DNA from: Escherichia coli
GTDB taxonomy: Bacteria > Pseudomonadota > Gammaproteobacteria > Enterobacterales > Enterobacteriaceae
Strand: one strand, 5' to 3'
Assembly (NCBI RefSeq): GCF_024298765.1
Contig: NZ_CP101210.1
DNA length: 64,000 nucleotides
Shown: positions 47,821-50,800 of the stretch, one piece after another
Position numbering within the stretch: position 1 is the first letter of the stretch
Layout of the letters: every line of letters begins with the position of its first letter
Program-made: the position numbers

Positions 47821-50800
47821 GTTTAAAAGACATCGGCGTCAAGCGGATGTCTGGCTGAAAGGCCTGAAGAATTTGGCGCGTTAACAAAGCGGTTATGTAG
47901 CGGATTGCAAATCCGTCTAGTCCGGTTCGACTCCGGAACGCGCCTCCACTTTCTTCCCGAGCCCGGATGGTGGAATCGGTAGACACAAGGGATTTAAAAT
48001 CCCTCGGCGTTCGCGCTGTGCGGGTTCAAGTCCCGCTCCGGGTACCATGGGAAAGATAAGAATAAAATCAAAGCAATAAGCAGTGTCGTGAAACCACCTT
48101 CGGGTGGTTTTTTTGTATTTGTATTTTGAGCAATGGCGGTAGAGTGGCGGTGGTGTGGCGATATGCAGAAACAATAATGGTGGTGCACGTGCTGTTTAAG
48201 CTCTAAGGATGAAGCAGAATTCTCCTGCAGCTCCTCCGTATTTCGCATAGTGAACCAAGACTTCGGTTAAACAAAATTTTTCTGGGATTTTTCCACTCGA
48301 CTTCATTTTTCCTCCAGTCATCCACCAAAGGTACCTGCGCTAATCTATCTTTTTTAATCTGACAACATCCTGAGAAAAGGCAAATTCGTCAGATTTACTG
48401 TTTTTTCTGCTGCTTCGAATGCCGATGTCTGCAGTACTGATAAGAGCTCTATCTCTTTGATATAGATCTTTTTTTTGATGAATTGCTCGACATATTATCG
48501 TTATGACACCTTCTTGTTAAAGGTGTTGTACTCCACATCTCGATTTTATGATGTGGGTTATGATTGGTTAGTAATAGAGTGTATCGGTATGCGATGTGGT
48601 TTATTAATGGCAATATGCTTTTGTTTGGTATCTTTTAGTGGGTATGCAGCAACAGGAAAGTCTGATGTTCAGATCAAGAAAGAAATAATTAAAGAATCCA
48701 TTGAATCATATCCAGGCAATTGTGCGTGTCCTTATAATCATGCAAGGAATGGTAGTAGGTGTGGTGGACGCAGTGCATATAGCCGTACTGGAGGGTATGA
48801 TGTGGTATGTTATGAGAGTGATGTTACTGATGAAATGATCCGGCAATGGAAGCAGGAGAATGCTGATTAATTACTTTTGACTGGTTTGTTTTGCGAGCAT
48901 TATGTGTGTTGTTAACGGTACCCTAGCTAAGTGAGAGTTCCAAAATAAAACCCGCAGTTTTTACGCTGCGGGTTTTATTGTTTCTGTCGATGGGATAGGG
49001 TGCCACTTCGGCCAGCCTTGGCAACCGATTGACGGGGGATTACTCCCCCGTCGCGGTTTCCTTACTGCTTACACTGTAAGAACGCCGCAAACTCCGCTCC
49101 CCAGAAGCTCATCCGTATTTCACACAGCGAACCGTGCAGCATCCAGATGATGAGGATTACCGTCACGCAGAACGTGATGGCCGTAAGCGATTTTTGCGAC
49201 ATAGCGCTTGCTCCTTTTTAGGGGAGGCGCTAACCTATCACTTGCTAAGGTTAGATGGTTAGGGCCTCGGTTAAACAGAGATGTTTTCCGGGGCCTTTCC
49301 ACATCTGGCCTTCGGGCATACCCTCCGACCATCAGCCGAAAGGCACCCGCGCGTAATCTATCGTTTTTTTGTTGCTTCGGCAATTCTGCTCGTTAATTCT
49401 GAGGTAAAGGCAAACTCATCTGATTGTTTCCCCTGTGTGACGTTGGCAGTTCATGCCACGGGATACCTTCTGAAGATCGAACGCCTGAGGTGTGTTTCGA
49501 TGTGAATTTATGGAAAGCTTCCAGTGTTGAGAAGCATACGCCGCATTCCAGGTTGTTACACTGGTAATACTTTTGTCGGACGGTGTTTGAATCATTTTCC
49601 GGACGACTTGTGCGGATACGGGCAGATGCGCCACAAAGCGGACAACGGAACATAGCAACCTCCCTTTAGGTGGTGCTATTCTAAACTTCATCAATGCAGA
49701 TTCCAACTCCTTCCCACTTTAAGCGAAGGATGGTGATAAAGTCAGAATATGTTAGATGAAGTCTAAACGGGCGATAAGTTTTCCAATATTTGAATAACAA
49801 CGTGGCAGGATTTTTGTTTATCAATTATCTTACACTTTTAAGTGTAATAAATTTGTTAGTGATGACAATATTGTGAGAGGAGATTATCAATTGAAGATGG
49901 CAAAAAATAACAATGATAAAATGCGGGCAAAGTATAGGCCGTTCATAAATATATGGGAACATCTTCCTTCTGAGTTCAATGAACTCATCAAGACGTTAAT
50001 GGTGCTGATACGGCAAGGGGAAAATGTGGGAGCTCAGCAAAGGGAGCTTGATTCCATCGAAAACTTCAAACACCTGTTAAGTGGATGGAAGCGGGCGCAA
50101 AGGATCATAGCTGATGAACTCATTATCAGGCTTTCTCAAATCAAGGATCTGGAGTTAGAAAAGAATTGTGCCCATTCAAAAAAGGACTATGAAACAAAGA
50201 AGAAGTGTATACGCAATATTGAAAGGACTAGACTAGAAATTAGGATTTTACGTAGGTGCATTGATTCAATTGTATGGGCGATATTCCGCAATGAACACTC
50301 GTCTATAAGACGGTTACCTATAAATAGAAATACTGACAATCTGACAATATTTAATATACATGATTCAATGGTGGTAGCAGATGAAATCAATGCTGATCCG
50401 ATGGCTATAGCTGTTATCACTGATATTACTACGTTTGTACATACTGGTGATTTACTTGCGTTAATACCTCAGCAAGGCATAACTTTAATTGAAATAAAAA
50501 GTGGTAAGAAAAATATAGAGTTTTCAAAGGCGGCTATGTTCTCAGTGCAAAGTAAATGTCTTCATTTTGATGAGATTTATAGAAAAGACCTTGATAAAAA
50601 TGACTTGAAACACTATGACAGAGCTAAGCGTCAACTTAAAAGAGCTCAAAATGTGATAGATGTCATTGAAACTGGTAAGGGATTTGATAACTTTTTTCAG
50701 TCTCAAGTAACAATTCATGACAGAGATTTTTGTCCCGATTTTTATACAGATAAGATTATTGAGCTTTGGTATGAGATATATAACGGTAAAACTTGGGCGA

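What the first reader, a model, noticed from the sequence alone, without database searches (positions are those of the whole stretch)
49062..49383. Hok/Gef-family type I toxin gene, missed by the ORF track, near the prophage/tRNA junction
Hand translation of the minus strand at 49202..49062 gives a 46-aa peptide with an N-terminal TM helix and the Hok signature SLCEIR-x6-E(F)AAF, preceded by a good RBS. An 87-aa ORF in another frame (49120..49383) overlaps its start in the way mok overlaps hok. A hairpin (gacggggga...tcccccgtc, about 49031..49053) lies just 3' of the stop. This would be a toxin-antitoxin locus flanking the prophage, where the antisense Sok-like RNA is not visible from sequence alone.
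Basis: partly seen in the sequence, partly recalled or inferred. Interest (0 to 1): 0.6.

Follow-up and report, generated by a model that had tools for sequence, protein, structure and literature searches.

The report
Known Hok toxin locus in prophage
This is a real Hok-family membrane-toxin gene with its antisense-RNA antidote, carried inside a P2-like prophage of E. coli; it is already annotated and catalogued, and its one unusual feature is that it seems to lack the usual helper reading frame (mok).

Summary
The 46-aa ORF at 49062..49202 (-) is real and is a Hok/Gef toxin: Pfam HOK_GEF 4.3e-7 and PHROG 251 2.5e-23. All seven residues conserved across Hok are present, and pN/pS is about 0.3. 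It is not new. RefSeq annotates the identical gene as "Hok/Gef family protein" next to ogr. Phage P88 carries it. The exact peptide is entry 1628 of Hok cluster 72 in a 2025-26 preprint, which found a one-residue variant toxic.

The surrounding RNA matches a hok mRNA. It has a conserved -10 box, a 5' tac element pairing with a 3' fbi element (four compensatory pairs), a GC hairpin after the stop (five compensatory pairs) and a terminator. On the plus strand a Sok-like gene is visible: TTGCTC-17-TAACCT, then about 55 nt with a free 5' tail and a terminator hairpin.

The 87-aa "mok-like" ORF is chance. Its TTG lies in the hok -35 box, upstream of the predicted transcript start, and the frame is closed in the 93.5%-identical P88 locus and in most other homologues. 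No overlapping ORF is conserved in any frame, although the same scan finds mok in R1-type and hokC loci.

The locus lies inside the leuZ-integrated prophage, about 830 bp from the att repeat. Transcription, Sok function and toxicity of this copy are inferred, not shown.

The parts
49355..49383 (-). Predicted hok promoter: -35 TTGCCG (49378..49383), 17-nt spacer, -10 TAGATT (49355..49360)
   Evidence: The -10 TAGATT/TAGAAT lies 6 nt upstream of GGGTGCC in all 14 homologous loci examined; the -35 is poorly conserved. It matches 8 of 12 consensus positions, below the scan threshold. Not shown experimentally.
48942..49348 (-). Predicted primary hok mRNA (about 400 nt), from the 5' end at GGGUGCC to the intrinsic terminator
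   Evidence: The start of the Rfam RF01794 model aligns at 49348, as it does at the 5' end of the hokC and R1-type leaders. MFE is -171.2 kcal/mol with z -7.15. The consensus structure of 14 homologues has 97% of cells paired and 16 pairs with compensatory changes.
49334..49348 (-). tac (translational activator) element, the 5' end of the mRNA: GGGUGCCUUUCGGCU
   Evidence: It pairs with fbi in the MFE fold and in the RNAalifold consensus. Alignment columns 10-13 with 350-353 all show compensatory changes between the E. coli and Salmonella/Klebsiella copies.
49244..49298 (+). Predicted Sok-like antisense RNA (about 55 nt), complementary to hok mRNA nt about 51-105
   Evidence: It has the same position and architecture as the annotated sokC: a 13-nt free 5' tail plus a terminator hairpin, dG -22.6 kcal/mol. 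The hairpin columns 54-61 with 81-88 include one compensatory pair. Not shown experimentally.
49208..49236 (+). Predicted Sok promoter: -35 TTGCTC (49208..49213), 17-nt spacer, -10 TAACCT (49231..49236)
   Evidence: TAACCT or TATCCT, with T1, A2 and T6 invariant and a fixed 17-nt spacer, is present in all 18 unique loci. The published sokW promoter-less mutant appears to change TAACC to GAGCC in the homologous box; this is read from primer sequences and is an inference.
49211..49216 (-). hok Shine-Dalgarno AAGGAG, sequestered by the upstream anti-SD GCGCCUCCCC (49220..49230) in a local hairpin
   Evidence: Sequence. The hairpin occupies alignment columns 120-131 with 138-150 and is 90-100% paired in 14 homologues, with one-sided changes only.
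49062..49202 (-). hok CDS, 46 aa, Hok cluster 72
   Evidence: The identical product is WP_000078920.1 'Hok/Gef family protein'. The exact peptide is catalogue entry 1628. The ORF is intact at 46-47 aa in 18 loci, with median pN/pS 0.31.
49031..49052 (-). GC-rich hairpin 10 nt after the stop codon; by analogy with R1, the likely 3' end of the processed, active mRNA
   Evidence: five compensatory pairs. The R1-type locus has the equivalent hairpin at +334..354, just before the published 361-nt truncated end.
48998..49013 (-). fbi (fold-back inhibitory) element GGCCGAAGUGGCACCC, complementary to tac
48942..48976 (-). Intrinsic terminator (AAAACCCGCAG..CUGCGGGUUUUAUUUU), bidirectional, shared with the convergent ORF 48589..48870
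   Evidence: The weak Rfam Thr_leader and ohsC hits here are generic terminator-hairpin matches.
49120..49383 (-). 87-aa alternative-frame ORF: a chance ORF, not mok and not a gene
49393..49653 (-). Context: ogr/Delta-type late-gene activator of the P2-like prophage; its stop codon is 10 nt upstream of the hok -35, with no terminator between them
48000..48116 (+). Context: prophage att repeat (117 bp: 3' part of tRNA-Leu leuZ plus 3'ETS-leuZ plus terminator)
   Evidence: Homology to K-12 ends at 48116. The same 117 bp recur 100% identical next to the integrase/yecA end in the 99.9%-identical genome NZ_CP077465.1.

Best explanation
[quoted passage not shown] It is carried as cargo between ogr and the attachment site of a P88-like (Xuanwuvirus, P2-like) prophage integrated in leuZ.

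Shown by computation: the minus strand encodes a 46-aa Hok toxin with one N-terminal hydrophobic helix followed by the conserved LCE...E..AAF tail. The gene sits in a highly structured mRNA of about 400 nt whose 5' end (tac) pairs with a 3' element (fbi).

Inferred by homology with R1 hok/sok:
- The closed full-length RNA is inert.
- Slow 3' exonucleolytic trimming back to the GC hairpin after the stop codon removes fbi.
- The RNA then refolds and exposes the target of a constitutively made, unstable antisense Sok RNA of about 55 nt, encoded on the plus strand at 49244..49298.
- The Sok-mRNA duplex is destroyed by RNase III, so Hok is made only when Sok supply stops.

The difference from the paradigm is that this lineage has no conserved mok reading frame. 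Sok therefore cannot act by blocking mok translation. The step that opens the sequestered hok SD is unknown. My best guess is mRNA destabilisation plus a structure or standby effect.

Likely biological roles, not distinguishable here, are prophage retention (killing of cured cells) and/or assisting lysis after induction, as shown for hokW-sokW of Sp5.
For: Toxin identity:
- Pfam HOK_GEF 4.3e-7 over the whole model; PHROG 251 2.5e-23.
- 39% identity to R1 Hok across the conserved core.
- All seven residues conserved in more than 80% of Hok peptides (M1, C16, T18, L30, C31, E32, E41 of the published logo) are present, at an offset of 4.
- The identical gene is annotated as Hok/Gef in RefSeq.
- The exact peptide is in the published catalogue. 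Cluster-72 members 72_1621 (45 of 46 residues identical) and 72_1589 were among the 42 of 45 homologues found toxic.
- pN/pS is about 0.3 and the ORF is intact in 18 loci.

RNA:
- Rfam RF01794 hits 49214..49348 on the hok-sense strand, E 2.6e-8. The same model hits the sense leaders of hokC and R1-type loci.
- MFE z is -7.15 with tac/fbi closure.
- RNAalifold independently recovers tac/fbi, the SD/anti-SD hairpin and the 3' hairpin. There are 16 compensatory pairs, against 0-4 for structures slid by 1-3 columns.
- The layout is collinear with an R1-type locus.

Sok:
- The antisense promoter is conserved in 18 of 18 loci.
- The fold resembles SokC.
- The target of the Sok 5' tail is predicted to be more open in the truncated RNA (unpaired probability 0.68) than in the full-length RNA (0.31).

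Context.
Against: - No transcript, processing, RNase III or toxicity data exist for this copy.
- The Rfam score (42.7 bits) is below the gathering threshold of 59, and both NCBIfam Hok models score below their curated cut-offs.
- The -35 boxes are weak, and the generic promoter scan found neither promoter.
- Without mok the canonical coupling mechanism cannot operate.
- The hok SD is predicted paired in the full-length, truncated and Sok-blocked states. However, the same calculation also fails to reproduce the known R1 switch, so it is uninformative.
- The published toxicity tests used the CDS with an artificial SD, not the native leader.
Confidence: 0.85

Rival explanations
1. Canonical three-gene hok/mok/sok locus. 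The 87-aa (or 70-aa, from the ATG at +17) alternative-frame ORF would be mok, and hok translation would be coupled to it.
For: The ORF exists and overlaps the hok start. From the ATG at mRNA +17 it would be 70 aa, the same length as R1 Mok.
Against: - The TTG start lies upstream of the predicted transcription start, inside the -35 box.
- The +17 ATG lies in the tac stem and has no SD.
- A 1-nt indel closes the frame in P88, which is 93.5% identical. The Stx-phage, Klebsiella and most Salmonella loci have no start codon in any frame that runs into hok.
- The same scan finds mok (GAGG, 8 nt, ATG) in R1-type and hokC loci. In this lineage the homologous ATG is ATC, ATA, GCA or AAC.
Confidence: 0.03
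2. A silent or decaying hok relic, like the IS-disrupted hok loci of E. coli K-12. It would be transcribed or not, but never translated, because mok has been lost and the SD stays sequestered.
For: There is no mok. The SD is predicted paired in all conformers. Some copies in other genomes are clearly damaged: L018:5445 has lost its promoter and tac next to a transposase, and L010 has lost tac.
Against: - The ORF is intact in all 18 loci with pN/pS about 0.3.
- Compensatory changes maintain tac/fbi and the 3' hairpin.
- Both -10 boxes are conserved.
- The lineage is spread across Escherichia, Shigella, Salmonella and Klebsiella and across several unrelated mobile elements.
- Selection on an untranslated relic would not preserve these features.
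Confidence: 0.1
3. Same parts, different job: mainly a phage lysis or host-takeover accessory rather than an addiction module. Sok would silence hok in the lysogen. After induction, Sok falls and read-through from ogr and the late transcripts raises hok mRNA, so Hok damages the membrane and speeds phage release.
For: hokW-sokW of Stx prophage Sp5 behaves this way: mitomycin C lowers sokW, raises HokW, and phage yield halves without the locus. Here the hok promoter begins 10 nt after the ogr stop with no terminator between them. The gene sits at the ogr end in P88-like phages and in a Salmonella P2-like prophage.
Against: HokW of Sp5 is a different, 51-aa Hok cluster in a lambdoid phage. No expression data exist for this locus. 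The role is compatible with, not exclusive of, prophage retention or abortive infection.
Confidence: 0.3

Closest known systems
Hok cluster 72 of Escalera-Maurer et al. (bioRxiv 10.1101/2025.08.07.668861): sequences 72_1628, 72_1621 and 72_1589
   Same: The window peptide is identical to catalogue entry 1628. 72_1621 differs by one residue (V15A), and 72_1589 is the Stx2-phage copy (L004). Both were cloned and fall among the 42 of 45 toxic homologues. The paper also reports that hok is enriched in prophages.
   Different: Nothing at the protein level. That study tested only the CDS with a fixed SD and explicitly did not analyse mok, Sok or the mRNA.
hok/mok/sok of plasmid R1 (the paradigm type I TA)
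   Same: Collinear layout: weak promoter, tac at the 5' end, a GAGG box, a Sok-target hairpin, a Sok promoter reading antisense out of the leader, a sequestered hok SD, a GC hairpin after the stop, then fbi and a terminator. The predicted primary transcript is about 400 nt, against 398 nt for R1. The Hok core SLCEIR...E.AAF is shared.
   Different: There is no mok ORF. The toxin is 46 aa rather than 52 aa, and only 39% identical over 31 residues. The location is a prophage, not a plasmid. The Rfam leader model scores 43 bits, against 87 bits for R1-type.
hokW-sokW of Sakai prophage 5 (Takada et al. 2021, PMC8621323)
   Same: A prophage-borne hok/Sok. The Sok -10 box TAACC lies in the same sequence context (GAGGC-TAACC). 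PHROG names this family 'MokW-like host killing'.
   Different: HokW is a 51-aa peptide of another cluster (MKQQKAM...), and its leader begins GCGGGTGCTTGAGG like hokC. The host element is a lambdoid phage. Stx2 phages carry, in addition, a cluster-72 copy 82% identical to the window locus.
hokC/mokC/sokC (gef) of E. coli K-12
   Same: It aligns from the mRNA 5' end through hok. The annotated sokC (59 nt) gives the template for the position and fold of the predicted Sok.
   Different: hokC has mokC (GAGG, 8 nt, ATG at +95), and its 3' part is disrupted by IS186. The window locus has no IS and no mok.
tisB/istR-1, a type I TA without a leader ORF (own knowledge: Darfeuille et al. 2007)
   Same: This is a possible functional analogy only. 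The antisense RNA binds well upstream of a structurally sequestered toxin SD and acts through a standby site plus RNase III cleavage.
   Different: There is no sequence or structural homology, and no evidence here for a standby site. It is offered as a model for how a mok-less hok could be controlled.

Membership tests
Hok/Gef toxin family (Pfam PF01848) | Significant full-length match to the family HMM | tested here: met
   HOK_GEF i-E 4.3e-7, residues 7-44 on model positions 5-42 of 42. PHROG 251 E 2.5e-23.
Hok/Gef toxin family (Pfam PF01848) | The residues conserved in more than 80% of Hok peptides (M1, C16, T18, L30, C31, E32, E41 of the published logo) | tested here: met
   M1, C12, T14, L26, C27, E28 and E37 are all present at a constant offset of 4 (sequence; list).
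Hok/Gef toxin family (Pfam PF01848) | NCBIfam curated models for HokA (NF007290) or the Hok family (NF007279) above their cut-offs | tested here: not met
   35.8 bits against a cut-off of 89, and 23.6 against 73. These are narrow equivalog and subfamily models, so the peptide belongs to another Hok cluster.
Hok/Gef toxin family (Pfam PF01848) | Toxicity on induced expression (membrane damage) | not testable with these tools
   Literature only: 72_1621 (1 residue different) and 72_1589 are not among the three non-toxic constructs out of 45 tested.
hok/Sok type I TA locus (hok mRNA family) | Long-range pairing between the 5' tac and 3' fbi elements that closes the full-length mRNA | tested here: met
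   MFE. RNAalifold consensus with four compensatory pairs; 7 further pairs are invariant or wobble.
hok/Sok type I TA locus (hok mRNA family) | Match to the Rfam hok-leader model (RF01794 'sok') at the gathering score | tested here: not met
   42.7 bits against 59, E 2.6e-8. All four other cluster-72 leaders tested score 38-48 bits, against 118 for hokC and 87 for R1-type. This is significant similarity, but outside the curated family boundary.
hok/Sok type I TA locus (hok mRNA family) | Cis-encoded antisense Sok RNA gene (promoter, free 5' tail, terminator hairpin) overlapping the leader | tested here: inconclusive
   The promoter TTGCTC-17 nt-TAACCT is conserved in 18 of 18 loci, and the fold resembles SokC. 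No expression data exist, and the generic promoter scan did not find it.
hok/Sok type I TA locus (hok mRNA family) | Overlapping mok reading frame whose translation is needed for hok translation | tested here: not met
   No conserved ORF with a start codon runs into hok in any frame in the 16 loci with complete leaders (18 unique loci scanned). The positive controls, R1-type and hokC, are detected by the same scan.
hok/Sok type I TA locus (hok mRNA family) | 3' processing to a truncated active mRNA, and RNase III cleavage of the Sok duplex | not testable with these tools
   Only the anatomy fits: a GC hairpin at the position where the R1 truncated RNA ends.
P2-like (Peduoviridae, P88-like) prophage cargo | Location inside the prophage, between ogr and att, as in sequenced phages | tested here: met
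   P88, Chuche, P884B11, 500465-2 and PhiR44_2 carry the locus at 92-94% identity. The att repeat is 48000..48116, and integrase is at the far end.

The most novel reading that the evidence does not exclude
Hok cluster 72 (46-aa toxins of P2-like and Stx prophages and of Salmonella and Klebsiella islands) is a mok-independent lineage of hok/Sok. It keeps the whole tac/fbi/Sok RNA machinery and even the former mok SD (GAGG), but has lost the mok start codon. Sok must therefore control hok by a route other than blocking mok translation, for example RNase III-triggered decay, a standby-site block, or an SD/anti-SD switch. I found no paper in the held library that describes this, and the recent Hok survey explicitly left mok unanalysed.
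Probability: 0.45. Interest if true: 0.4.

Novelty: already known. Interest (0 to 1): 0.17.

Why it matters
As a gene call it matters little. The toxin is already annotated in RefSeq, sits in a PHROG family, is listed in a curated Hok catalogue and is effectively validated as toxic.

Its practical value is as a reminder that ORF tracks with a 60-aa floor miss type I toxins.

The one point that could interest RNA biologists is the apparent absence of mok in a lineage that otherwise preserves every hok mRNA element under selection. If real, it offers a natural experiment on how Sok can silence hok without translational coupling.

A second point is that this lineage repeatedly sits at the extreme end of integrated elements, which bears on whether prophage hok/Sok serves retention or lysis.

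Tried and rejected
1. mok hypothesis. I scanned all three frames of 18 unique homologous loci for ORFs that run into hok, using R1-type and hokC as positive controls. Rejected. A 3-codon GUG mini-ORF ending at the anti-SD and non-AUG starts at the old mok position were also examined by eye. Neither is conserved (alignment).

2. Rfam. The 'sok' hit is below the gathering score and lies on the hok-sense strand. Checking hokC and R1-type loci showed that the model describes the hok leader, not the antisense RNA. The weak Thr_leader, ohsC, STnc40 and mir-374 hits at 48912..48998 are generic matches to the terminator hairpin.

3. Generic promoter scan. It found neither the hok nor the Sok promoter, so both were located by conservation instead.

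4. Thermodynamic test of an SD/anti-SD switch in full-length, truncated and Sok-blocked RNA. The hok SD accessibility did not change. The control failed to reproduce the known R1 mok-SD switch, so the test is uninformative and my proposed 'GAGG frees the SD' model stays unsupported.

5. PADLOC gave no hit for Hok.

6. I could not retrieve Steif & Meyer 2012 ('The hok mRNA family') or Pedersen & Gerdes 1999. I therefore cannot exclude that mok-less hok loci were noted there.

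Full report
**Observation.** The minus strand of 49062..49202 carries an ATG ORF of 46 codons, MSQKSLTAITFCVTVILIIWMLHGSLCEIRMSFWGAEFAAFLQCKQ. AAGGAG precedes it by 8 nt. A perfect 9-bp GC-rich hairpin follows it at 49031..49052, with dG -18.5 kcal/mol and z -5.3. The 87-aa ORF 49120..49383 in another frame also exists.

**Identity of the peptide.**
- Pfam HOK_GEF matches residues 7-44 over model positions 5-42 of 42, with E 4.3e-7.
- PHROG 251 ('MokW-like host killing') matches end to end, with E 2.5e-23.
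- BLASTP against R1 Hok gives 39% identity over the conserved core, with SLCEIR and E.AAF aligned.
- The seven positions conserved in more than 80% of 1264 Hok peptides are all present.
- The two narrow NCBIfam models (HokA and the Hok subfamily) hit but stay far below their curated cut-offs. The peptide therefore belongs to a different Hok cluster.
- Relatives of 60-98% identity occur in E. coli, Shigella, Salmonella and Klebsiella, and all are named Hok/Gef.
- In 18 unique loci the ORF is always intact at 46-47 codons. Median pN/pS is 0.31.

**It is already known.**
- The window is E. coli. A 99.9%-identical stretch in E. coli O111:H8 strain 8E carries the identical gene, annotated 'Hok/Gef family protein' (WP_000078920.1), next to an ogr/Delta zinc-finger gene.
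- 1757 of 5426 complete E. coli genomes match the 801-bp ogr-hok query, and 1178 of them match over at least 80% of it.
- Phage P88 and other P2-like phages (Chuche, P884B11, 500465-2, PhiR44_2) have the locus at 92-94% identity. Stx2 phages have a copy at 82%.
- The exact peptide is entry 1628 of cluster 72 in the Hok survey of Escalera-Maurer et al. (bioRxiv 10.1101/2025.08.07.668861).
- Two cluster-72 members, 72_1621 (one residue different) and 72_1589, were cloned. They are not among the three non-toxic constructs out of 45 tested.

**The RNA around it.**
- Rfam's 'sok' model RF01794 hits 49214..49348 on the hok strand, at 42.7 bits and E 2.6e-8, below the gathering score of 59.
- I checked what that model represents. 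In K-12 it hits the hokC-sense strand from the mRNA 5' end to the hok AUG, opposite to the annotated sokC. It does the same in an R1-type plasmid locus. The hit therefore marks the hok leader and places the mRNA 5' end at 49348.
- Six nucleotides upstream lies TAGATT. A TAGATT or TAGAAT box is present at that spot in all 14 homologues examined.
- The RNA from 49348 to the terminator folds with an MFE of -171.2 kcal/mol and z -7.15. Its first 15 nt (GGGUGCCUUUCGGCU) pair with GGCCGAAGUGGCACCC at 48998..49013, which is the tac/fbi closure of hok mRNAs.
- RNAalifold on 14 homologues from three genera recovers that helix independently.
- Four of its pairs switch between E. coli and Salmonella/Klebsiella by changes on both sides. 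Five pairs of the hairpin after the stop codon do the same.
- Overall 97% of cells are paired, with 16 compensatory pairs, against 0-4 when partners are slid by 1-3 columns.
- The order of elements matches an R1-type locus: GC hairpin after the stop, then fbi, then an intrinsic terminator.
- The published R1 RNA sizes are 398 nt full length and 361 nt truncated. By analogy I expect forms of about 400 or about 358 nt and a processed form of about 320 nt here.

**Sok.** By homology it can.
- On the plus strand, TTGCTC (49208..49213), 17 nt, then TAACCT (49231..49236) is conserved in all 18 loci. Variants are TTGCCT or TTTACT for the -35 and TATCCT for the -10, and the spacing never changes.
- The sokW 'promoter-less' mutant of Takada et al. 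appears, from its primer sequences, to alter exactly this TAACC box. This reading is my inference.
- Transcription from about 49244 to the UUU at about 49298 would give a 55-nt RNA with a 13-nt free 5' tail and a long terminator hairpin. This is the architecture of the annotated 59-nt SokC.
- The tail region is the most variable part of the leader between copies, as expected for copy-specific recognition.
- None of this is shown experimentally.

**mok.**
- The 87-aa ORF starts with the TTG of the hok -35 hexamer, 35 nt upstream of the mRNA 5' end.
- Within the transcript its first ATG is at +17, inside tac, with no SD.
- In P88 a 1-nt indel closes the frame. The Stx-phage, Klebsiella and most Salmonella copies have no start codon in any frame that reads into hok.
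- The same scan finds mok in R1-type (ATG +112) and hokC (ATG +95), each 8 nt after GAGG.
- Cluster 72 keeps that GAGG (mRNA nt 81-84) but has ATC, ATA, GCA or AAC where the ATG should be (alignment).
- The 'mok-like' ORF is therefore a chance ORF, and this lineage appears to lack mok.
- How hok is then translated is open. Its SD is paired with an upstream CUCC in the consensus structure.
- How Sok represses hok is also open. Its target ends about 28 nt upstream of the SD.
- I tested a simple SD/anti-SD switch by partition-function accessibilities and saw no change. The same method fails on the known R1 switch, so it says nothing either way.
- The only supportive signal is that the target of the Sok tail is predicted more open in the truncated RNA than in the full-length RNA (0.68 against 0.31).

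**Context.**
- Homology to K-12 ends at 48116, just after leuZ and its 3' external transcribed spacer. Homology to P88 starts at 48942.
- In the near-identical genome the same 117 bp (window 48000..48116) recur next to a phage integrase and yecA about 37 kb away.
- The prophage is therefore integrated in leuZ. hok lies inside it, about 830 bp from the att repeat and directly downstream of ogr, with no terminator between them.
- Other cluster-72 copies also sit at the outer edge of integrated elements. Examples are U-D-ogr-hok next to ihfA in Salmonella, tail-fibre genes then hok next to fieF, and one island ending in hok next to either prpB or serS. There are also tandem arrays of two or three copies.

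**Function.** The role cannot be decided here. Prophage retention by killing of cured cells and help with lysis after induction, as shown for hokW-sokW, are both plausible and not exclusive.

**Verdict.** The mok part is wrong and the location needs correcting. The feature is a known, annotated and catalogued Hok toxin locus, so interest is low. The apparent loss of mok in an otherwise fully conserved hok/Sok RNA system is the only lead worth a specialist's attention.

Noticed in passing
[not shown]
   Followed up: partly
window 48000..48116 (+): The prophage att repeat is 117 bp: the 3' part of tRNA-Leu (leuZ) plus the whole 3'ETS-leuZ small RNA and its terminator, duplicated 100% identically at the integrase end. 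The phage therefore supplies a second copy of this sRNA sponge sequence.
   Followed up: partly
window 48117..48941, ORF 48589..48870 (+): About 825 bp of prophage DNA lies between the att repeat and the hok terminator and is absent from P88 and from K-12. It encodes a 93-aa protein with a signal-peptide-like N-terminus and a Cys-rich motif (YPGNCACPYN..RCGGRSAYSR), matching phrog_27544, of unknown function. It is convergent with hok and shares the bidirectional terminator.
   Followed up: partly
L005, L006, L016, L017, L018 (Salmonella enterica contigs): Cluster-72 hok loci occur as tandem arrays of two or three complete copies about 500 bp apart at the end of an island next to a DUF4875 gene. 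In L018 a transposase separates the last copy from its promoter and tac.
   Followed up: partly
L003:502-654 (-) compared with the annotated sokC at L003:553-611 (+): Rfam family RF01794, named 'sok antitoxin', matches the hok-sense leader (mRNA 5' end to hok AUG), not the antisense Sok strand, in the K-12, R1-type and cluster-72 loci. Strand calls based on this family would be misleading.
   Followed up: yes
NZ_CP077465.1 2172133..2173408 (far part of the same prophage, outside the window; L023:4134-5409): The P2-like prophage carries ParM and a partition/stability protein next to its replication gene. This hints at a plasmid-like maintenance option or another stability cargo.
   Followed up: no
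L012:3295-3492 (-): In a Salmonella P2-like prophage the hok terminator is followed within about 40 nt by the host sRNA gene STnc540 (Rfam 171.6 bits) and ihfA. There, hok abuts the prophage-host junction much more closely than in the window.
   Followed up: no
L022 (IncFII plasmid, R1-type hok) and L003 (hokC): In these two sequences the mok ATG is in the same frame as hok (57 nt upstream), so Mok would be an N-terminally extended Hok. The published R1 coordinates imply an offset of 58 nt, that is, a different frame. I did not resolve this.
   Followed up: no
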